Source: Candidatus Zambryskiibacteriota bacterium
Lineage (GTDB): Bacteria; Patescibacteriota; Minisyncoccia; Phycocordibacterales; WO2-35-19
NCBI GenBank assembly: GCA_048499675.1
Contig: JASNZL010000008.1
Span: 27 to 64,026 of the forward strand
Direction of reading: 5' to 3'
DNA length: 64,000 bases
The notes beneath the pieces were generated by a model. It was not told where the DNA came from. It saw nothing but the letters and a program-made list of their open reading frames with translations, and ran no database searches. Below are positions 888 to 55,822 of this stretch, in pieces. Every line of letters starts with the position of its first letter. Position 1 is the first letter of the stretch. The position numbers and the translations under genes are program-made.

Positions 888-2137
888 ATCAGCCTCCTAC
901 TTGGTTGATAAACGACAAAGAACTTGTTTAGTACATTACCTTAAAAAAGTATCTTGTCAAATTATAGAGACGGGGGGAATTAACCCAGAATCGTGGATAT
1001 TTTATAACACTTTGTGTTATAAAATATACTCACGTTCTTGGTTGAAGGAATTGGTCACGAGTATTTTGTTTGTCGTCACAAACAAAATCTCTCCTTCTTA
1101 CAGAAGCTGTCCACTCATTGGAATTTTTATTTCACATAGTTCATAAAAATTCTCAATGAGTCTTGCGCTTGGGTCCCACCCCAAGCTCACCCCGCCTCGC
1201 GGTGCTCCCGTCTCCACTTAAAAAACAAAAGCGTTTTGGGTGCTGATGTTTTGATAGGGAATTGGTCACGAGTATTTTGTTTGTCGTCACAAACAAAATC
1301 TCTCGACCCCAGCTCGCCTGTTTTTGTTGCTACAAAAACATGGCTCCGCTTTTCAATTCCCACGCACACCAAACTGTTGGTGTGCTCCCGTCTCCACTTA
1401 AAAAACAAAAGCGCCTGTGGCGCTAATGTTTTTACAAGTGGAGACGGGGGGAATTGAACCCCCGTGCATAAAAGGTTTGGAAATATATCTACATAGTATA
1501 GTTTGTTTTTCCGCATACGCGGATTCGATTCAAATTCTTTAAAACAAACAAAACAAATATGAATCTAACTCTTTATTTTCAAACAAAGGGCAGAGTATTC
1601 CTTTGCTTATAGTCCGAATTTATAACAATTTCTTTCTATAACAGACTTCAAGAGGAAACCGTCCACTTAGGCGAGCTTAAGCTCTAGCGTAAGCGAAGTC
1701 AAAGTCGCTCACCGCAAAATACGGAGAAACAACTTTTGCAAGAGTGTTTTTTGCACTTATGCTTTCTAACCTTTTTAAGAGTTATTAGAGCTCTACTATG
1801 CATATTTTCAAAGGACTTAAATGTCGATGCCTATCATCCCCGCCAAATTTGCCTGCGAGCAGAGCGAGTAGTTGCAAATTTGAGCGCTCCGACCGTAAGC
1901 GTCGGAGCCACCAGCCAAACTTAGCGCGGATTTTAGTTTTTTATTTCTTTATTTTAACCCACTAATTACTAATATTCACCTGCCCGCAATCGCTACGCTT
2001 AAGGCGTTGCAGGCGGGCTAATCTTACTAATCCAAAACTACAAAATTCAAATTTCATCTCATTTTTCTTTCTCCGTATCGTTGCCCGCTTTTATTATTAG
2101 TTATGATTAGCGTACATTAGCGGATTGGTGGGTAACT

Positions 2138-4669: not shown

Positions 4670-4745
4670 GCACGCGTAGCTCAGTTGGTAGAGCGCCGAG
4701 CTTATACCTCGGTGGCCGTAGGTTCGAGTCCTACCGCGTGCACCA
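4670..4745 (+). tRNA. tRNA-Ile, anticodon UAU (reads AUA)
   Basis: cloverleaf by hand: acceptor GCACGCG/CGCGTGC, D-arm GCTCAGTTGGTAGAGC, anticodon stem CCGAG/CTCGG with loop CTTATAC, T-arm GTAGGTTCGAGTCCTAC, encoded CCA. Confidence 0.75.
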
Positions 4746-4791: not shown

Positions 4792-4867
4792 GCCGCTGTA
4801 GTTAAATGGATTATAACAGTCCCGTCCTAAGGGATAGTTGAAGGTTCGATTCCTTCCGGTGGCACCA
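4792..4867 (+). tRNA. tRNA-Arg, anticodon CCU
   Basis: acceptor GCCGCTG/CGGTGGC (two G-U pairs), anticodon loop GTCCTAA, T-loop TTCGATT, encoded CCA. Confidence 0.7.
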
Positions 4868-40980: not shown

Positions 40981-40999
40981 ATGATAGGATAAATGCAAG

Positions 41000-41129
41000 G
41001 TCCCGTAGTAGAAAATGGCATTAAAAGTGTGGTTTGTAAGTATGGATTAAATTGATTATGTTTAAATTACCAACAATAAAAACAAAAATGAGCACCTGCT
41101 TTTAAAGCAATGCCTTTTTTCACTACGGG
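41000..41129. repeat. 130-bp element with 21-bp terminal inverted repeats, copy A, abutting the tsaE start codon
   Basis: GTCCCGTAGTAGAAAATGGCATT ... AATGCCTTTTTTCACTACGGG; second copy at 48931-49059. Confidence 0.75.
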
Positions 41130-41627
41130 ATGCAATATACATCTAAATCAGTCGAAGAGACAGAAGAAATAGCAAAGGATTTTATAAACGATTTTATTTT
41201 ACAGGAGAAAAATAGAGACAAAGCTTTTGTGGTGGGTCTCTATGGCGACTTGGGGGCAGGCAAAACAACTTTTATGAAATGTTTCGCAAAAAATTTGGGT
41301 GTAAAAGAAACTATTCAAAGCCCAACATTTGTCATAATGAAGAAATACGAGTTACGAAGTACGAGTAACGAAGAACGAGAAAAAAAGGAATCTGATTTAT
41401 CGTACCTCGTACCTCGTACTTCGTATGCCTGTTTATATCACATTGATGCTTATAGAATAGAAAAAGACGAGGAAATGTTAAAATTAGGATGGGATGAAAT
41501 AATACACAACCCGAATAATTTAGTTTTTGTAGAATGGCCGGAAATTATAAAAGATATAATGCCACCACATACTAAAATATTTTTTGAACATATAAAAGAA
41601 AACGAGAGGGAAATAAAAATAATTTAA
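41130..41627 (+). CDS. tsaE: tRNA threonylcarbamoyladenosine biosynthesis ATPase TsaE, carrying an in-frame ~80-bp palindromic insertion
   Basis: P-loop GLYGDLGAGKTTF, SPTFVIMKKY, YHIDAYRI. The segment ELRSTSNEEREKKESDLSYLVPRTSYACL is encoded by inverted TACGAG-type arms (41346-41426). Confidence 0.8.
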   Translation: MQYTSKSVEETEEIAKDFINDFILQEKNRDKAFVVGLYGDLGAGKTTFMKCFAKNLGVKETIQSPTFVIMKKYELRSTSNEEREKKESDLSYLVPRTSYACLYHIDAYRIEKDEEMLKLGWDEIIHNPNNLVFVEWPEIIKDIMPPHTKIFFEHIKENEREIKII

Positions 41628-46197: not shown

Positions 46198-46271
46198 CCG
46201 CCCGTAGCTCAGTCGGTAGAGCAGCTCCCTTTTAAGGAGATGGTCGTAGGTTCGATTCCTACCGGGCGGAC
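46198..46271 (+). tRNA. tRNA-Lys, anticodon UUU
   Basis: acceptor CCGCCCG/CGGGCGG, D-arm GCTCAGTCGGTAGAGC, anticodon loop CTTTTAA, T-arm GTAGGTTCGATTCCTAC. Confidence 0.8.
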
Positions 46272-47967: not shown

Positions 47968-48930
47968 TTAGTATTTTATAGTCGCTACTACGAGCCCATT
48001 TTCGTCATGTAAATTTATGACATCATTTTTGGTTCTCCATAACGTACCAAATCTACCTAGATAAACCCTATAAATATTTCCCGGGAAATCGGTGTCCCCA
48101 AAATGGGTAGCTACGCACATATTGTAGTTAATCTGAGTGGTTAAGTATGTTTTGCATGAAGTTGTAACAGTGTCAGGCAAATCTCTAATGAACTCATTAT
48201 CTATTGTTCTACATCTACCTATTCTTTCAATAATCTTTACACACTCATCGTGTCTATCTGGAATGGATGAAAATAATGGGAGATTTTCGTCTTTCGCACG
48301 TGGGCACTGTAGAGGTAATCTTGGGTAAAAAGTGCGGTTTTCTTCAAAATAACCAGTACACTTGTTTGTTCTAAAAGAGATACCGATTGGAGAAAATCCT
48401 TTGGTTACGATGGCCTTATCTCCTTTTTGCAAAACAATGTCACTTTCTGTTTTTGTATTTGGAAAAGGTAAAAGTGATGCTCTACCAATCATTGCGTAAT
48501 TTCCTGTAACTTCACTCCTAAAATACCAGCCAGTAATATTTATCGTTTCAGTTATTTTGAGATTTGTAGACAATGTTAAATATTCTTTGCTTGGGTCACT
48601 TTGCCTAACCCCAGAAATATTGGACATTCTTATTTTGCCATAATATGGCGACCTCTCTTTGGGTACTACTTGCTTCGATATGTTTCTTTCCAGTTTTTGA
48701 AGATCTCTTTCTATTTTTTTTATCTCGTCTGCAAGTACTTTATTTGAAGTTTCTCCAAGATTTGTTCCGGAACTTGTATTGCTTCGTCCGACAGAGGAAG
48801 ACCCTTCTGTAGAAGCAGTTTTGCCCGAGCTTGTCTGTCTGTCACTCGAGCTATTTTTGATTGGTCCATAAGCAAGACCAACTACGATTATTAAAACTAA
48901 TATTACAAATATAGGTGTTTTGTCTTCCAT
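47968..48930 (-). CDS. N-terminally anchored Ser/Thr-rich and Cys-containing extracytoplasmic protein; unknown
   Basis: MEDKTPIFVILVLIIVVGLAYGP anchor; no family recognised. Confidence 0.45.
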   Translation of the reverse strand: MEDKTPIFVILVLIIVVGLAYGPIKNSSSDRQTSSGKTASTEGSSSVGRSNTSSGTNLGETSNKVLADEIKKIERDLQKLERNISKQVVPKERSPYYGKIRMSNISGVRQSDPSKEYLTLSTNLKITETINITGWYFRSEVTGNYAMIGRASLLPFPNTKTESDIVLQKGDKAIVTKGFSPIGISFRTNKCTGYFEENRTFYPRLPLQCPRAKDENLPLFSSIPDRHDECVKIIERIGRCRTIDNEFIRDLPDTVTTSCKTYLTTQINYNMCVATHFGDTDFPGNIYRVYLGRFGTLWRTKNDVINLHDENGLVVATIKY

Positions 48931-49059
48931 CCCGTAGTGAAAAATGGCATTGCTTTAAAAGCAGGTGCTCATTTTTGTTTTTATTGTTGGTAATTTAAAC
49001 ATAATCAATTTAATCCATACTTACATACTACACTTTTGATGCCATTTTCTACTACGGGA
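48931..49059. repeat. 130-bp TIR element copy B (reverse orientation on + strand), abutting the start codon of the 47968..48930 gene
   Basis: CCCGTAGTGAAAAATGGCATTGC ... GATGCCATTTTCTACTACGGG; ~90% identical to copy A. Confidence 0.75.
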
Positions 49060-49106
49060 CCATCCCGTTAGAAGTATAAAATTATACAATTGAAAATAAA
49101 TTTTCT

Positions 49107-49973
49107 CTAACTATACTTTATTTGGTGTATGGGACAGAAGTGAGAACTACGTCCTTTTATCACCATTCTCTCTATTATACCCGAGCATCCGTTTTTTGGA
49201 CACTCTGCCCCTTTTTTGCCATAAACCTTGTGAAAATTTTGAAAACCACCTTTTTTGCCAAAAGCATTGCGATAATCTGATTTAGAATCGCCTCCATGCT
49301 TAATTGAAAGTTTTAATATTGTTAGCATAGCTTTAAATATTTCTATAAATTTATTTTCTGGAATTTTTTCACTCTTTGACGCGGGGTGTATACTAGTTTG
49401 CCAAAGTATTTCATCTGAATAAATATTACCAATTCCAGCAATGGTGTTTTGGTCAAGTAGACTTGATTTAATTGGCCAATTTTTCTTTCTATGAATCAGC
49501 TCAAAAAGTTTTTTTGAATTTAATTTTGGATGGAAAGGGTCAATACCGAGTTTTCCGAGTGTTTCGTGCAAATGATTTTGATCCGTTTTTGAAATAATGA
49601 CAGAAGCAAATTTTCTCAAATCTGAAAGTAGTAAATAGTGATTATTTGAAAGTGTGAAAATGAGGTGAATATATTTTTCATCAGAGAAATCTTTTTTATA
49701 CATAAGGCACCCTGTCATTTTCATATGCACCACGATTGTATGGTCAGTGCTTAAATTTATTAAAATATTTTTACCTCTTCTTTCTACACTTTTAATTTTT
49801 GAACCCTTAGTAATTTTTCGGAACTTATCAAAATATTTTTTGTTCTTTATGTTTTGTCGATTGTTATATTTTGAACCAATATAAAAATCCGACCAGACAT
49901 CCTTAATTGTCTTGCCAATAACGACACTTTTCAAACCTTCTACGGTTGTATGTACTTCGGGTAATTCAGGCAT
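49107..49973 (-). CDS. mutM: formamidopyrimidine-DNA glycosylase (Fpg/MutM/Nei family)
   Basis: N-terminal MPELPEVHTTV (catalytic Pro2/Glu3), H2TH, C-terminal zinc finger CPKNGC...CPIHQ. Confidence 0.9.
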   Translation of the reverse strand: MPELPEVHTTVEGLKSVVIGKTIKDVWSDFYIGSKYNNRQNIKNKKYFDKFRKITKGSKIKSVERRGKNILINLSTDHTIVVHMKMTGCLMYKKDFSDEKYIHLIFTLSNNHYLLLSDLRKFASVIISKTDQNHLHETLGKLGIDPFHPKLNSKKLFELIHRKKNWPIKSSLLDQNTIAGIGNIYSDEILWQTSIHPASKSEKIPENKFIEIFKAMLTILKLSIKHGGDSKSDYRNAFGKKGGFQNFHKVYGKKGAECPKNGCSGIIERMVIKGRSSHFCPIHQIKYS

Positions 49974-50038
49974 GGAATAGTTTAGAGCTTACAGCTTTTA
50001 GCTTAGAGTGTAAACAAACCAAAAATTTCTCAAAACTT

Positions 50039-51337
50039 TTAGCTATTACCTAAAACCTTCTTTAGTTCTTCACGAGCAACATACGCATCGTCCCAAGGAG
50101 TTTTTTTACCGTTGGCTTCCATAATATAAGGGTCAGTGCCTTTACCTGTAATCAAAACAGCAACTCTGTTTTGGTTATCCCGCGAAGCTCCATTTTTTGG
50201 AGCGAAGCGAAACGCCTTCAGAATCGCGGTCCGAATCGCAGTTCGTCTATCCATTATAATTTCTGTCGGTTTGTTTTTTATACCTTTTTTTATATCATCC
50301 ACGATTTTTACAGGGTCTTCATCATACGGGTCTTCATTGGTTAAAATAATTTGTTCACAATATTTGTCTGCAAGTCGTCCCATCTCAGGTCTTTTCCATG
50401 TGTCTCTACCGCCCCCAGTATTTCCCAAAATACAAATTGTTTTGTGTGTTTTATAGGTTTCGTATACTGCTTTGAGTGAGTCGGGTGTGTGAGCATAATC
50501 AACAACAACATCAAAATTTTGTCCTATATCTACTTTTTCCATTCTGCCTCTTATAAACTGCATATTTTCCAAACCTTTCTTAATTATCTCGTCCTGTATT
50601 CCAAAAAATCTTGCACAAGCTATTGCGCCAAGCATATTTGAAACGTTAAATATTCCTGGGAGTTTGGAATGAATCACAACTTTGCCTATCTGAAAAACAG
50701 AACCTTTTTCATCTGCTTTGACAGCGGTTGCGTCTTTGAGAGAGTAGGGGATTTTGTGGTCTGCAGAAACCTCTAAAAACTTTTCTCCTTCTTTATCGTC
50801 TATGTTTGCAATTATGCAAGTATCCCCTTTGACTTTTTTTGTTAACTCGCGTGCAATATTTAATTTGGCTTCTCTATAATTTTCGTAAGAACCATGAGAT
50901 TCGATGTGTTCCTTTGCAAGATTTGTAAATATAAGAGCGTTTGGGTATATAAATCTGTGCCTGAATTGTTTTGATCCTTCACTTGTCATTTCCATAACAA
51001 CATGAGTACAACCCGCATCTAAACTTCTCTTTAGAAAATTTTGTAAGAAAAATCTCCCCGGCATTGTCATTTTAAAAAGGTTTCTTTCTTCTTTTTCGCC
51101 AATTTTAAAACGAAGTGTGCTTGCGAGAGCGGTTTTGTATCCAGCTTCCTCAAAAATCGCATTTACTATTTCTGTTGTTGTTGTTTTGCCTTTTGTACCG
51201 GTTATACCAATTACAACCATTTTTTTAGAAGGGAAACCAAATTTAATTGCTCCAAGAAGTGCAAGTAAAAAGTGGTAGCTAGGCTGAAAAAAACTAAATA
51301 TCTTTTTTGGTATTATTTTTTTTAAAATGTTAAGCAT
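50039..51337 (-). CDS. Mur ligase family enzyme (MurE-like UDP-MurNAc-tripeptide synthetase)
   Basis: P-loop GITGTKGKTTTTEIV, DYAHTPDSL. Confidence 0.7.
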   Translation of the reverse strand: MLNILKKIIPKKIFSFFQPSYHFLLALLGAIKFGFPSKKMVVIGITGTKGKTTTTEIVNAIFEEAGYKTALASTLRFKIGEKEERNLFKMTMPGRFFLQNFLKRSLDAGCTHVVMEMTSEGSKQFRHRFIYPNALIFTNLAKEHIESHGSYENYREAKLNIARELTKKVKGDTCIIANIDDKEGEKFLEVSADHKIPYSLKDATAVKADEKGSVFQIGKVVIHSKLPGIFNVSNMLGAIACARFFGIQDEIIKKGLENMQFIRGRMEKVDIGQNFDVVVDYAHTPDSLKAVYETYKTHKTICILGNTGGGRDTWKRPEMGRLADKYCEQIILTNEDPYDEDPVKIVDDIKKGIKNKPTEIIMDRRTAIRTAILKAFRFAPKNGASRDNQNRVAVLITGKGTDPYIMEANGKKTPWDDAYVAREELKKVLGNS

Positions 51338-51539
51338 ATTTAAATTTAAAATGTAAATATAAAAATTAAAAATGACAATTTAAAATGGAAAATATTTAAA
51401 CCCTAAATTATACTTTTTTGCTATTTTATATTCTTGCCTGTGACTTTTCATTTTGACTTTTAAATTTATAATTTAATCGTACCTCGTACCTCGCCTTCTC
51501 AATTAGTGTCATTCGTTTTCATTTGTAATTTGTGTCGTG

Positions 51540-52106
51540 TTATTGACCTAAATTTTTTAAAATATATTTTATTTTTTCGTTTGTACCTTCCAAATCTTTT
51601 GGTAATTGTTTGATTGTTTCTTGAATATCTCTTTCACGATAACCTAATGATTTAAGAGCTTCAAATACATCCACATCTTCGCTAGTCCTGCTTTCACCTT
51701 TTCTGGTTGTAATTAGTTTTCCATTCAGTTCCAAAACAATTTTCTCCGCTGTTTTTCTGCCAATACCTGAAATTTTGGTAAGTGATGAGGTGTCGCCAGT
51801 ACCAACCGCCTCTTCAATTGATTTTACTCCTGCAACAGAAAGTATGGCTAAACCAGATTTCGGCCCAACTCCAGAAACAGTAATCAAAAGCTCAAAAATC
51901 CTTAGTTCCTCTTCAGTTTCAAAACCATATAAATCAATTGAATTTTCTCTGACCGCCGTGTGGGTCCAAAAGTTTGCTTCCTCTCCTGTTCTTAATTTTG
52001 CCAAATAAGAAGGTGTGCTATATATAATAAAACCAATATTGCCAGCCTTTACAATAGCTTTTGCACCCTTTAAATCAAAAATTTTACCTGTTATGTGTCC
52101 AAACAT
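51540..52106 (-). CDS. ruvA: Holliday junction DNA helicase RuvA
   Basis: MFGHITGKI..., HhH motifs LLITVSGVGPKSGLAIL, C-terminal domain. Confidence 0.9.
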   Translation of the reverse strand: MFGHITGKIFDLKGAKAIVKAGNIGFIIYSTPSYLAKLRTGEEANFWTHTAVRENSIDLYGFETEEELRIFELLITVSGVGPKSGLAILSVAGVKSIEEAVGTGDTSSLTKISGIGRKTAEKIVLELNGKLITTRKGESRTSEDVDVFEALKSLGYRERDIQETIKQLPKDLEGTNEKIKYILKNLGQ

Positions 52107-52259
52107 AAAAGCTTAGAGCTAAAAGCTTAGAGCTTGAAGCTGTATATAATATAGCAAAACTGAGGTTATTTTCATCTTATTGCTATTTTTTTATATTTAT
52201 GTTAGATTTTACACGTCATTAATTTTAAATTTTGATTTTTTAATTTTGATTTTTATAAC

Positions 52260-52517
52260 ATGCCAATAATCAAATCAGCAAAAAAGGCCCTAAGATCTTC
52301 AAAAAAGAAGAGAATTTTCAATTTGAAAAGAAAAAACGAAATGAACAAGATTGTTAAGGAATACAAAAAGCTTGTAATTTCAAAATCAGAAAAAGAAGCT
52401 AAAGATTTGTTACCAAAACTTCAGAAAGCAATAGATAAAGCCTCAAAGAGGGGAGTAATAAAGAAAAACACAGCATCTCGCAAAAAATCCCGCCTAATGA
52501 AGAAACTTTCAAAATAA
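52260..52517 (+). CDS. rpsT: 30S ribosomal protein S20
   Basis: MPIIKSAKKALRSSKKKRIFNLKRK. Confidence 0.9.
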   Translation: MPIIKSAKKALRSSKKKRIFNLKRKNEMNKIVKEYKKLVISKSEKEAKDLLPKLQKAIDKASKRGVIKKNTASRKKSRLMKKLSK

Positions 52518-52529
52518 TTCAAATCAACA

Positions 52530-52558
52530 AAAAAACAGCAGATGCTGTTTTTTTGTTG
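52530..52558 (+). terminator. rho-independent terminator after rpsT
   Basis: AAAAAACAGCAGATGCTGTTTTTTTG; the identical sequence recurs at 54028-54056. Confidence 0.8.
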
Positions 52559-52655
52559 TCCACATTTCTATAGGATTTATTTTAGTTAATTAAATACAAT
52601 ATAAGCATTAATAATATTATAAATCTAACTATGAATTTTTTTAAAGTATTGATTT

Positions 52656-54005
52656 TTGCAGGTATTGCAACATCAATTTTTTTTTGGTGTGTTTAATACA
52701 TCGTCTGCAAATACGGTTCCGCCCCCATTTATTAGTGGTACAGAAGTTAAGGGCGGGCCAAGTATGACAAGTTATATAGGAGAAGAGCTTATTATAAATG
52801 GTACAAATTTATTTACTTTTTGTTGTAAATATGACACTGGAATTTACATAAATAGCAAAGGTCCATTGTCATTAAACGAAAAAATTATTTCTGAGAATAG
52901 AATATCATTTATTGTACCGAATAATTTAGAAGAAGGTAATTCATTTAGTTTGTACATAACAACAAACTCAGGAATAAGTAATATTGTAAACGTTAAAGTG
53001 ATACCAAAATTAGTAAGTAATCAGCTACCAAAACCTTATATATCAAGCATAGAGCCAAAATCAGCAAAAGTGGGCGAATTAGTAACTGTGCGAGGTTCTA
53101 ATTTGTTTGGCAACTCGGTATATCTAAATGATTATTCTGTAAGTTCTGATCCTGTAAACTATAGTTATGACGCTTCTGGCAACAGTCTTGTTTTTACAGT
53201 TCCTAAAGGTTATGACGTAGGAAGATATAATCTGAAAGTTGAGCAAAGAGTTGTTGGTGGGTTTAGCAACTCACTCCCTTTTGAAATTATTGCACAAACA
53301 ATAAATAAACAGCCCGTCATCTCTAGTGTAGAATCAAAAGTAATTGGTGCTGGTAATGTAGTGTCAGGAGAAAAAGCTTATATTCACGGTTCTGGTCTAT
53401 TGGGGCCTTTAACAATACAACTTGGTACGATTGAACCAAAGTATGTATACACTAGAGGAACATCTGATACTTATGCGGAGTTTGTTGTTCCGTATTATAC
53501 TCAAGGAATAAATCTAGACATAAAGGTTACTAATTCAACCAATCTATCTAGTAGTCCTTACCCAGTAAGAGTGTCTACAACATATAGTTCTGCTGGTACT
53601 ACATCAGTTGCGCCAGTTATGGTTGACGCAAGCAACTCTGATTTGAATCAGGTCATTAAATCACTCTTAGAGCAAATTCAGGCATTACAAGCTCAATTAA
53701 ATGAGAGAAACAAACAGACAACTAACGCAACAAATCAATTTAATAATACAAACATAAATGCATCTTGTTTGATTATTAACCGCGATTTAGCCTACAGAGA
53801 AAAGGATGGGTGGAACACGTCAAATATCACTGGTTTGCAAGATTTTCTTCAATCATCAGGTTACCTAAATTCAGAACCAACTGGTTATTTTGGTCTGATG
53901 ACATTAGACGCAGTTAAGAGATTCCAGAGTGCCCACTCTATAAATTCTACTGGATTAGTTGGTCCAATGACTAGAGCCAAAATACAAGAGTTAAGTTGTA
54001 GATAG
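52656..54005 (+). CDS. surface protein with three IPT/TIG-like repeats, a coiled-coil linker and a C-terminal peptidoglycan-binding domain. The apparent signal peptide lies in another frame upstream (ATG 52631), separated by a T9 tract.
   Basis: repeated segments YISSIEPKSAKVGELVTVRGSNLFG / VISSVESKVIGAGNVVSGEKAYIHGSGLLG; C-terminal DFLQSSGYL...GYFGLMTLDAVKRFQ (PG_binding_1-like). Confidence 0.65.
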   Translation: MQVLQHQFFFGVFNTSSANTVPPPFISGTEVKGGPSMTSYIGEELIINGTNLFTFCCKYDTGIYINSKGPLSLNEKIISENRISFIVPNNLEEGNSFSLYITTNSGISNIVNVKVIPKLVSNQLPKPYISSIEPKSAKVGELVTVRGSNLFGNSVYLNDYSVSSDPVNYSYDASGNSLVFTVPKGYDVGRYNLKVEQRVVGGFSNSLPFEIIAQTINKQPVISSVESKVIGAGNVVSGEKAYIHGSGLLGPLTIQLGTIEPKYVYTRGTSDTYAEFVVPYYTQGINLDIKVTNSTNLSSSPYPVRVSTTYSSAGTTSVAPVMVDASNSDLNQVIKSLLEQIQALQAQLNERNKQTTNATNQFNNTNINASCLIINRDLAYREKDGWNTSNITGLQDFLQSSGYLNSEPTGYFGLMTLDAVKRFQSAHSINSTGLVGPMTRAKIQELSCR

Positions 54006-54027
54006 TTTATTCATTAGATTATCAAAC

Positions 54028-54056
54028 CAAAAAACAGCAGATGCTGTTTTTTTGGT
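54028..54056 (+). terminator. rho-independent terminator (second copy of the rpsT terminator sequence)
   Basis: AAAAAACAGCAGATGCTGTTTTTTTG. Confidence 0.8.
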
Positions 54057-54070
54057 TGTAATTAATTATC

Positions 54071-55822
54071 CTATCGGCCACCACCACCGCCACCACCGCC
54101 ACCCCCTCCGGAAAAACCACCCCCTCCAGAGCCACCAGAGCTTGAACCATAACTCGAGTTTGCATTAACTGTATTTGAGAAACTACTCATCATTGATGCA
54201 AAAGTGACCGTGTTTATCGTTTGATTATGACTTGAGTACCAACTAGGTCTTGAATGGGTAATTTCGTAATAATGCCCAAGTTCTTTGTTCCATTCTTTTT
54301 CTTTGTTGAACAATACAGCATAGGGAAGTACTTTTTCGTATAATTTTATTAGTTTTGCAGTATCTCTTGTGTCTATAACAACTTTTTCTGCACCAGTTGG
54401 ACTTTGTAAAACTCGCATTCTTTCTGTCTCAGCCATACTTATGTAGTGCTTAAATCCTTTGAGATAGCGACGCAACTCCAAACCTTTGTCTGTGAGTGGT
54501 TTAAGATGCTTTGATGCTCCGTATAGAGTAACAGCCATAATCAAAAATACGAAATTTAGTGATAAGGCGCCACACACAACTAAACCCAAAGCCCCGTATT
54601 TTAATTTTTTTGTTTTGGATTCATCCACTCTTCTTAATTCATATCTCAGGACAAGTAATTCATCCAATTTCTTTTTATTATCACTGATTCTTTTTCGAAA
54701 ACTTGTGTTATTGCGCAAAGATTTTAGAGCCAGTCTCTGTCCTGTTTGTGGAATTCCATCAAAAAGATCACTAAGCATCTCTTTTTCTTCTTCAAAGAGA
54801 TTATTTAAATCATTTTTTATTTCTATTTCATATTCGGCTTTCTTCCAAAAAGTTTTCTCTTTTAACTCAATTATCTTAATATAATCGCGCACTGCCAAAT
54901 CCAAAAGAAAAGCTGTAAGAACAGAATGAGCACTATTTAGTAAACTGGCAGATGTTATTACACTGACCCCGTCTGGAGGGAAATATTCAGTAACGATTGT
55001 CCCTAATTCCTTGTTTCTATTATGAGACTTGTAATAGAAGTATAAAGACCAAAAAATGATTAATACTCCAGTCATTTGAGCAGTAAGTTGGATTAAAGGT
55101 GAAGCAAAAATAGCGAGTATTTTTTCTATTAAAGTAGGTTTGTAACCGGCAAAAGTTTCGGGATTGAAACCAACTGCAATAGTTAAATTTTCATACGGTA
55201 AAAGATTGGTTGTGCTTGCGGTCAAACCATGAAAAATGGGCGATAGTGTACAGGTTTCAGTTCCGCCACTTGCTCCACGATAACAAGCTACAGATCCAGT
55301 GAGTGATGGTATTAATGATTCTGCTATGTTTATTTGAACATTTAGATTTTCTATAGGAACCCTCCAACCCGTGCCGTTTGTGTCCCAGTAAAATTCATCT
55401 TGGTTTGTATTAGGAAAATATTTTGTAACATCTCGTAAGGTGTAGGTGATTGTATATGTTTGTGGGCCAAGGAGATATTCATCTGTCCCTGTTTCAATAA
55501 CATAATGGTCGCCTTTTGAATATTCGGCATATATTGGTTCTGGTTGGCCGTTGCGTTCTAGAGATATTAATGAAAAGGAGAGCGAATGCCCATCATATTG
55601 ATCTGGGATTTCCCGCACTAAACCCTTGTTTTGGGGAAAAGTGGGGAAGTCTGCAGTGATACGCTCTACCACTCGTAGAGTAGAGTGTCCTTCATTGTCT
55701 TTATCCAAAAAATACTCAATTTCAAATTGACTGATTGAAAAATTATTTACATCAGCCATCACCAAAGAAGCCTCACTAAATAGAGAGAAGATTAGTAGAC
55801 AAATAATCAAAAATTTTTTCAT
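54071..55822 (-). CDS. DUF2207-like membrane protein with Gly-rich C-terminal tail
   Basis: signal peptide, large extracytoplasmic N-domain, TM cluster, C-terminal SSSGGSGGGGFSGGGGGGGGGGGR. Confidence 0.6.
   Translation of the reverse strand: MKKFLIICLLIFSLFSEASLVMADVNNFSISQFEIEYFLDKDNEGHSTLRVVERITADFPTFPQNKGLVREIPDQYDGHSLSFSLISLERNGQPEPIYAEYSKGDHYVIETGTDEYLLGPQTYTITYTLRDVTKYFPNTNQDEFYWDTNGTGWRVPIENLNVQINIAESLIPSLTGSVACYRGASGGTETCTLSPIFHGLTASTTNLLPYENLTIAVGFNPETFAGYKPTLIEKILAIFASPLIQLTAQMTGVLIIFWSLYFYYKSHNRNKELGTIVTEYFPPDGVSVITSASLLNSAHSVLTAFLLDLAVRDYIKIIELKEKTFWKKAEYEIEIKNDLNNLFEEEKEMLSDLFDGIPQTGQRLALKSLRNNTSFRKRISDNKKKLDELLVLRYELRRVDESKTKKLKYGALGLVVCGALSLNFVFLIMAVTLYGASKHLKPLTDKGLELRRYLKGFKHYISMAETERMRVLQSPTGAEKVVIDTRDTAKLIKLYEKVLPYAVLFNKEKEWNKELGHYYEITHSRPSWYSSHNQTINTVTFASMMSSFSNTVNANSSYGSSSGGSGGGGFSGGGGGGGGGGGR

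What the first reader, a model, noticed from the sequence alone, without database searches (positions are those of the whole stretch)
52631..52700. T9 homopolymer separates an in-phase signal peptide from the body of the IPT/TIG surface protein
ATG at 52631 encodes MNFFKVLIFAGIATSIFF, then reaches a stop. The main 449-aa ORF is in the +1 frame and starts at a TTG. Removing one T from the 9-T run (52677-52685) fuses a plausible signal peptide (…IFFGVFNTSSA) to the protein. This is either a sequencing error or a slipped-strand phase-variation switch on a surface adhesin-like gene.
Basis: seen in the sequence. Interest (0 to 1): 0.55.

Follow-up and report, generated by a model that had tools for sequence, protein, structure and literature searches.

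The report
One-T frameshift in surface-protein gene
One extra T in a run of T's cuts the export signal off a cell-wall-binding surface protein gene in this uncultured groundwater-type bacterium, while three closely related strains have one T fewer and an intact gene, so this is an ordinary, very recent homopolymer frameshift and not a demonstrated genetic switch.

Summary
T9 lies at 52677-52685. ATG 52631 opens a 21-codon ORF (MNFFKVLIFAGIATSIFFWCV*), and the 449-aa ORF (52656-54005) sits in the +1 frame. Deleting one T gives a 457-aa protein with a textbook Sec signal peptide.

That 457-aa protein exists. Three independent public assemblies of 98-99% identical strains carry T8 and the intact gene, and one of them differs from the window across the whole gene only by that T. 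The two T8 haplotypes give dN/dS = 0.10, so the gene is functional.

T9 is not an assembler quirk, because a second assembly from raw reads (SRR21762701), 100% identical to the window, also has T9. Read-level error cannot be excluded.

Nothing marks the tract as an evolved switch. T8 is what normal codon usage gives for Ile-Phe-Phe, and 12 of the 15 other A8/T8 tracts in the window sit inside ORFs, some of them recognisable housekeeping genes.

Best reading: a real, very young slipped-strand +1T allele that switches off (or strongly weakens) a lineage-specific secreted protein with an IPT/TIG domain and a peptidoglycan-binding domain, in a Ca. Zambryskibacteria-like (Patescibacteria) genome. 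Phase variation and consensus error remain minority readings. Only read counts can separate them.

The parts
52525..52558 (.). Hairpin plus T-run after rpsT (S20). It is a terminator-like element that separates rpsT from the target gene, so the target probably has its own promoter.
   Evidence: 15-pair stem; sequence
52618..52623 (+). A -10-like hexamer TATAAA ending 7 nt before ATG 52631. It suggests a leaderless or very short-leader mRNA that begins at or near this ATG (inferred).
   Evidence: the same arrangement occurs in 10 of 50 genes against 6% background; only 12 of 53 ORF starts have an SD-like motif, and there is none before ATG 52631 or TTG 52656.
52631..52696 (+). Truncated reading frame of the signal peptide in the T9 allele: MNFFKVLIFAGIATSIFFWCV, then TAA.
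52677..52685 (+). The T9 homopolymer. In intact alleles it is T8, read as A-TT TTT TTT (Ile16-Phe17-Phe18).
52686..52709 (+). Rest of the signal peptide in the main frame (GVFNTSSA). The predicted signal peptidase I site is SSA|NT, between 52709 and 52710.
   Evidence: translation; -3/-1 rule applied by eye; hydrophobicity
52656..54005 (+). The 449-aa ORF as it stands. TTG 52656 is only the first possible start codon in this frame and gives no signal peptide: MQVLQHQFFFGVF has a maximum 12-residue Kyte-Doolittle (KD) hydropathy of 0.77, against 2.40 for the fused form.
52710..53024 (+). Ig-like repeat 1, with weak matches to TIG (E 0.021) and DUF4469 (E 0.0017).
53025..53309 (+). Ig-like repeat 2, an IPT/TIG domain (PF01833, 36.8 bits, E 4e-9). 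It overlaps most of the SNP-dense patch 52900-53276.
53310..53591 (+). Ig-like repeat 3. It has the same P-x-I-S-S ... G-S-x-L pattern and is predicted all-beta, but has no significant Pfam match.
53637..53744 (+). Long predicted helix (a coiled-coil-like stalk, LLEQIQALQAQLNERNK...).
   Evidence: secondary structure from a low-confidence model
53820..53984 (+). PG_binding_1 peptidoglycan-binding domain (PF01471, 51.5 bits, E 1e-13).

Best explanation
The gene encodes a Sec-exported protein: a signal peptide, three Ig-like repeats (at least one a bona fide IPT/TIG domain), a helical stalk and a C-terminal peptidoglycan-binding domain. The host is a Ca. Zambryskibacteria-like (Patescibacteria/CPR) bacterium. 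The working form has a T8 tract that simply spells Ile-Phe-Phe in the hydrophobic core of the signal peptide. In the strain of this window, replication slippage added one T. Translation from the true ATG therefore stops after 21 codons, and the body of the protein is left without a start site or an export signal. The allele is off, or at best leaky through occasional RNA-polymerase or ribosome slippage on U9. The event is very recent. It is the kind of indel any A/T homopolymer of this length suffers, and it may revert, but the tract shows no sign of having been shaped as a switch. Shown here: the T9/T8 difference, the intact homologues, purifying selection on the gene, and the ordinariness of the tract. 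Inferred: that T9 is real in the cells, that the protein is lost, and that the cause was replication slippage.
For: (1) Three independent assemblies encode the intact 457-aa protein with T8 (SRR27710300, SRR33243635, SRR33243636). (2) L001 differs from the window across the whole 1375-bp gene only by the one T, and across 51540-54181 by that T plus one SNP. The frameshifted allele has therefore accumulated no other change. (3) The two T8 haplotypes differ by 24 synonymous and 9 non-synonymous changes, dN/dS = 0.105, so the gene is under purifying selection. (4) T9 is reproduced in a Logan assembly of SRR21762701 that is 100% identical to the window over 3337 bp. It is also the only indel in 5186 bp against L001, so the assembly is not generally error-prone at homopolymers. 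(5) The fused N-terminus has a basic n-region (K5), a 13-residue hydrophobic core and SSA|N, whereas the TTG-started product has no hydrophobic core. (6) A -10-like box lies 7 nt upstream of ATG 52631, and there is no SD or -10 box before TTG 52656. (7) The tract is ordinary. P(ATT TTT TTT | Ile-Phe-Phe) = 0.24 from this genome's codon usage, and Phe-Phe is encoded as TTTTTT 41 times against 40.3 expected. Twelve of the 15 other A8/T8 tracts lie inside ORFs, including the Mur ligase gene.
Against: No reads were available. The window and L005 probably come from the same read set, so a read-level artefact is not excluded. Only four samples carry the gene, so the polymorphism is known from a single T9 observation. 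For an off allele to become the majority in a natural population, either selection or drift is needed. That is also what a phase-variable surface protein would look like, and reversibility cannot be judged.
Confidence: 0.55

Rival explanations
1. Evolved phase variation. The T tract is a contingency locus whose slipped-strand length changes (T8 on, T9 off) reversibly switch a surface protein, for example to escape phage, a host or a predator that recognises it.
For: There is a T8/T9 difference between strains that are otherwise identical across the gene. The tract sits at codons 16-18, where a shift abolishes the whole product. The off allele is otherwise undecayed, while the gene is under purifying selection. 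The product is a lineage-specific exported protein, the class of gene usually subject to phase variation (established knowledge).
Against: The on-state tract is only 8 nt and is what codon usage predicts. Twelve equal-length A/T tracts lie inside ORFs, some of them ordinary housekeeping genes, in the same 64 kb, so this one does not stand out. Only one off observation exists, with no within-sample heterogeneity data. No full-text paper in the library links phase variation by homopolymers to Patescibacteria.
Confidence: 0.2
2. Sequencing or consensus error. The cells have T8, and the extra T arose in base-calling or assembly.
For: It is the longest homopolymer in the window, the class of site where indel errors concentrate. 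All other strains have T8. The rest of the gene is identical to a T8 allele, which is what an artefact would also give. The two T9 sequences probably share one read set (100% identity).
Against: Two different assemblers give T9, so T9 must be the majority k-mer path in the reads. There is no other indel in 5.2 kb against L001 or in 3.3 kb against L005, although those stretches hold other homopolymers such as T8 at 51316. A scan of 348 homopolymer runs found no other case where a long ORF looks split, though that scan has little discriminating power.
Confidence: 0.2
3. Programmed recoding. T9 is the designed state, and the full-length protein is made by +1 ribosomal frameshifting on U UUU UUU UGG, or by RNA-polymerase slippage on the T9 run.
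For: Runs of 9 A/T are the classical bacterial transcription-slippage motif (PMC5009743). E. coli RNA polymerase restored about 10% of expression by deletion on poly(T8) reporters (PMC6260861). tRNA-Phe can re-pair in the +1 frame on the U run (shown by the sequence).
Against: Recoding sites are conserved among relatives, whereas here the closest relatives encode the protein directly with T8. There is no stop or known hungry codon at the shift site (UGG) and no SD-like stimulator upstream. In transcriptome-wide data, slippage at A/T runs gives mostly insertions, whereas a 1-nt deletion (or a 2-nt insertion) is needed here, and no pseudogene rescue was seen in that study (PMC5574713). Low-level accidental rescue remains plausible, but that is leakiness and not a programme.
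Confidence: 0.03

Closest known systems
Homopolymer-tract frameshift alleles of surface-protein genes (slipped-strand mispairing; the contingency loci of Haemophilus, Neisseria, Campylobacter and Helicobacter)
   Same: A mononucleotide run lies near the 5' end of a gene for an exported protein. A one-base length difference between near-identical strains decides whether the ORF is intact.
   Different: The classical loci have tracts longer than coding needs, occur many per genome in surface or modification genes, and show mixed lengths within one culture. Here the tract is a codon-usage-neutral T8/T9. Equal tracts are common in other ORFs, including housekeeping genes, and within-population variation is untested.
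Poly(A)/poly(T) frameshifts in A+T-rich reduced genomes (Buchnera, Blochmannia), partly rescued by transcriptional slippage
   Same: An A+T-rich (37% GC), reduced-genome bacterium has a frameshift in a 9-nt A/T run of an otherwise intact gene. Partial rescue by polymerase slippage is conceivable.
   Different: Rescue here needs a deletion or a +2 insertion. The reported endosymbiont cases involve longer tracts, and no transcript data exist for this organism.
Bacterial IPT/TIG-repeat cell-surface proteins with a PG_binding_1 anchor
   Same: The architecture is a signal peptide, tandem Ig-like repeats and a C-terminal PF01471 domain. Other Patescibacteria proteins share the C-terminal domain at 43-63% identity.
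   Different: The Ig-like N-terminal 320 residues have no recognisable relative outside this species-level lineage, either in a 5.8-billion-protein search or in scans of GTDB genomes and JGI metagenomes.

Membership tests
Simple-sequence-repeat phase-variable (contingency) locus | A mutable repeat tract lies within the 5' coding region or promoter | tested here: met
   T8/T9 at codons 16-18
Simple-sequence-repeat phase-variable (contingency) locus | Tract length differs between closely related genomes while the ORF is otherwise intact | tested here: met
   T9 in the window and L005; T8 in L001-L004. The gene is otherwise identical to L001.
Simple-sequence-repeat phase-variable (contingency) locus | The tract is longer or more frequent than composition and codon usage predict (a sign of selection for mutability) | tested here: not met
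   P = 0.24 from codon usage; Phe-Phe as TTTTTT 41 observed against 40.3 expected. Fifteen other A8/T8 tracts, 12 of them inside ORFs.
Simple-sequence-repeat phase-variable (contingency) locus | Mixed tract lengths within one population, with high-frequency reversible switching | not testable with these tools
   Needs raw reads or cultures; none are available.
Sec-type signal peptide cleaved by signal peptidase I | A basic n-region, a hydrophobic h-region of about 10-15 residues, and small residues at -3 and -1 | tested here: met
   In the fused form: K5; VLIFAGIATSIFF, with a maximum 12-residue Kyte-Doolittle (KD) hydropathy of 2.40; S-S-A|N. This was judged by rule, not with a trained predictor.
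IPT/TIG domain (PF01833) | A match to the Pfam model above the gathering score | tested here: met
   Repeat 2 alone scores 36.8 bits against 20.9. Repeat 1 scores 15.3 bits (below the cut-off) and repeat 3 has no match. The whole-protein scan did not list TIG.
PG_binding_1 (PF01471) | A match to the Pfam model above the gathering score | tested here: met
   51.5 bits against 23, residues 397-451 of the fused protein
Programmed +1 ribosomal frameshift (prfB type) | The out-of-frame arrangement is conserved in relatives, with a slow or stop codon at the shift site and an upstream SD-like stimulator | tested here: not met
   Relatives are in frame with T8. The A-site codon is UGG, and the upstream sequence GCAACATCAA has no SD.
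Programmed transcriptional slippage (dnaX of Thermus, mxiE of Shigella, IS elements) | An A/T run of at least 9, plus an out-of-frame arrangement conserved among relatives | tested here: not met
   The run of 9 is present, but the arrangement is not conserved.

The most novel reading that the evidence does not exclude
The T8/T9 tract is a working on/off switch for a wall-anchored Ig-like surface protein in a Ca. Zambryskibacteria (CPR/Patescibacteria) population. It would be the first contingency locus described in this radiation of ultrasmall, probably host-attached bacteria, and it would point to this lineage-specific protein as a target of phage or host recognition.
Probability: 0.15. Interest if true: 0.5.

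Novelty: new member of a known kind. Interest (0 to 1): 0.2.

Why it matters
For annotation, the gene should be recorded as a frameshifted 457-aa secreted protein with its true start at 52631, not as a 449-aa TTG-started cytoplasmic protein, which is how the public protein P0001 stands. Biologically, it shows a lineage-specific cell-surface protein of an uncultured CPR bacterium knocked out by a single-base event in one population and kept under purifying selection in others. That gives a small, cheap-to-test hint of strain-level surface variation. If read data showed mixed tract lengths, it would be an entry point to phase variation in Patescibacteria. If they did not, this is a routine homopolymer frameshift.

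Tried and rejected
- Exact DNA-pattern scans for the flanks with any tract length found nothing in GTDB genomes or JGI metagenomes.
- Protein-based locus scans of the same collections also found nothing. The window's genome is not a GTDB species representative.
- No gene encoding exactly P0001, or the window's DUF2207 protein, is on record.
- A paper search for the four SRA run accessions returned nothing, so sample origin and sequencing platform remain unknown.
- A PDB sequence search with P0001 gave no match.
- A single-sequence AlphaFold model was poor (pLDDT 41). It was used only for secondary structure, and no fold search was run.
- A scan of 348 homopolymer runs, asking whether a 1-nt indel would lengthen an ORF, gave only trivial end-of-gene extensions. 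It does not discriminate well, because the target itself gains only 22 codons.
- The 46-aa members of the P0001 cluster are unrelated GC-rich peptides, not T10 products.
- Programmed recoding was considered and rejected, because relatives encode the protein in frame.
- TTG 52656 and ATG 52764 were considered as alternative starts. Neither gives an export signal. ATG 52764 has an SD-like AAGGGCGGG upstream, but it would yield a cytoplasmic fragment lacking part of repeat 1.

Full report
**Observation.**
- Nine T's occupy 52677-52685.
- ATG 52631 reads MNFFKVLIFAGIATSIFFWCV and stops at TAA 52694-52696.
- The 449-aa ORF 52656-54005 is in the +1 frame. It begins at a TTG that is simply the first possible start codon after the previous stop.
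- Removing one T (or adding two) joins the frames into a 457-aa protein beginning MNFFKVLIFAGIATSIFFGVFNTSSA|NTVPPP.
- T9 is the longest homopolymer in the window. With 42 T7 and 7 T8, one T9 is about what the fall-off with length predicts.

**The fused protein is real.**
- A search of 5.8 billion proteins found the 449-aa form (P0001, NCBI, on a contig of 69,120 bp). Beyond it, the search found only proteins sharing the C-terminal peptidoglycan-binding domain.
- The 90% cluster of P0001 contains two 457-aa members. P0029 is identical to the window's T8-fused product. P0027 differs at nine residues.
- Their DNA comes from Logan assemblies of SRR27710300 (L001) and SRR33243635/6 (L002, L003). 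It is 97.7-98.7% identical to the window and carries T8, with flanks invariant over more than 200 bp.
- In L001 the entire 1375-bp gene differs from the window by that one T alone. From ruvA to the contig end (51540-54181) there is only one further SNP.
- The L002/L003 haplotype has 33 substitutions, packed into 52900-53276. They are 24 synonymous and 9 non-synonymous, giving dN/dS = 0.105. The gene is therefore maintained by selection, T8 is its working state, and the T9 allele is too young to have collected any other change.

**Is T9 an artefact?**
- An exact look-up of the neighbouring S20 protein brought in L005, a Logan assembly of SRR21762701. It is 100% identical to the window over 3337 bp and also has T9. 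Its gene was called from the same TTG.
- The window's MAG was probably built from that read set, so this is a second assembler and not a second sample. It does mean that T9 is the dominant path in the reads.
- The T run is the only indel in 5186 bp against L001, and there is no indel in 3337 bp against L005, although those stretches include other homopolymers such as T8 at 51316.
- Across 348 homopolymer runs, no other long ORF in the window looks split. That test is weak.
- Overall I put a read-level or consensus error at about 0.2.

**What the gene is.**
- Pfam gives PG_binding_1 at residues 397-451 (51.5 bits).
- When the three roughly 95-residue repeats are scanned separately, repeat 2 gives a clear IPT/TIG match (36.8 bits against a cut-off of 20.9). 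Repeat 1 gives weak TIG and DUF4469 matches, and repeat 3 gives nothing.
- A single-sequence AlphaFold model was poor (pLDDT 41). It predicts all-beta structure for residues 38-321, a long helix at 328-363 and a helical C-terminus, which fits the domain plan.
- The fused N-terminus has a Lys at position 5, a 13-residue hydrophobic core and S-S-A|N. The TTG-started version has no hydrophobic core.
- Few genes here have Shine-Dalgarno motifs (12 of 53). A -10-like hexamer ending 3-12 nt before the ATG occurs in 10 of 50 genes, against 6% background. The target has TATAAA ending 7 nt before ATG 52631 and nothing comparable before TTG 52656.
- A terminator-like hairpin (52525-52558) separates the gene from rpsT.
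- ATG 52631 is therefore the real start. In the T9 state no exported product can be made by standard decoding.

**Organism and context.**
- The window's RuvA is at least 90% identical to RuvA of a Ca. Zambryskibacteria MAG (OHB14858.1), which places it in Patescibacteria/CPR.
- In those relatives the stretch after rpsT holds other genes (HIT, tRNA_bind, RuvX, PilM). The target and the neighbouring DUF2207 gene are therefore lineage-specific additions.
- No relative of the Ig-like part was found in GTDB genomes or JGI metagenomes.

**Switch or accident?**
- In favour of a switch: the tract sits at the 5' end of a gene for an exported protein, it differs between near-identical strains, and the off allele is otherwise pristine.
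- Against an evolved switch: T8 is what codon usage yields for Ile-Phe-Phe (P = 0.24). Phe-Phe is written TTTTTT exactly as often as expected (41 against 40.3).
- Also against: 12 of the 15 other A8/T8 tracts lie inside ORFs, including the Mur ligase gene, and there is only one T9 observation.
- No paper in the library links homopolymer phase variation to Patescibacteria.
- My reading is therefore a real, recent slipped-strand insertion at an ordinary mutational hot spot (0.55). Evolved phase variation gets 0.2 and artefact 0.2.

**Recoding.**
- Programmed recoding is rejected, because relatives encode the protein in frame, the shift-site A-site codon is UGG, and there is no stimulator upstream.
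- Accidental leakiness is plausible. Runs of nine A or T are the classical bacterial transcription-slippage motif (PMC5009743), and E. coli RNA polymerase restored about 10% of expression by deletion on poly(T8) reporters (PMC6260861).
- Transcriptome-wide data show mostly insertions at such runs and no pseudogene rescue (PMC5574713). A two-base insertion would also restore the frame, adding one Phe.

**Verdict.** The kind of event is well known, and this locus is a new but ordinary example. Interest is 0.2. The decisive test is a count of tract lengths in the raw reads, using the other A8/T8 tracts as controls.

Noticed in passing
window 40990-41135 and 48925-49070: A 146-nt inverted repeat, 94% complementary, with arms 7.8 kb apart. 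Each arm covers the upstream region and first codons of an outward-facing gene (41130..41627 + and 47968..48930 -), and the pair brackets polA and neighbouring genes. It could be a duplicated promoter or 5' region, or the ends of an invertible or mobile segment (also seen as a second BLAST hit).
   Followed up: partly
window 52900-53276: Thirty-three of the 34 differences between the window and the L002/L003 haplotype of the target gene fall in this 380-bp patch, which spans the end of repeat 1 and most of Ig-like repeat 2. That is about 9% divergence against about 0.1% elsewhere in the gene, and the changes are mostly synonymous. It looks like a recombination import. The L005 contig ends inside the patch, at 53096.
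   Followed up: partly
window 48996-54181 vs L001: Divergence is mosaic. The fpg gene is 4.8% different and the Mur ligase gene 1.5%, while ruvA through the target gene are essentially identical. This suggests frequent recombination among co-existing strains.
   Followed up: no
window, gene starts throughout: Only about a quarter of ORF starts have a Shine-Dalgarno-like motif. A TATAAT-like hexamer ends 3-12 nt upstream of the ATG in 10 of 50 genes, against 6% background. This suggests many leaderless mRNAs in this genome.
   Followed up: partly
window 1436-1841 (-); 4670-4742, 4792-4864, 46198-46270 (+): A tmRNA gene (110 bits) and three tRNA genes.
   Followed up: no
window 54071-55822 (-): The neighbouring DUF2207 membrane protein ends in a long Gly run (…SSSGGSGGGGFSGGGGGGGGGGGR), encoded by G/C-rich repeats. 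Like the target gene, it is absent from the syntenic region of related Zambryskibacteria.
   Followed up: no
protein cluster of P0001 (database, not the window): Six of the nine members of the 90% cluster are unrelated-looking 46-aa GC-rich peptides (MPGGFTPPAQ…) found on many contigs. This appears to be a clustering oddity of the collection.
   Followed up: no
L006 (SRR33243636) vs window 50025-52523: A third, more divergent strain (94.9% identity, 12 gap openings, Mur ligase 435 aa instead of 432) co-occurs in the same sample as the L003 haplotype. In both SRR33243635 and SRR33243636 the contigs break in the rpsT-target intergenic region (52523-52581), not at the T tract.
   Followed up: no
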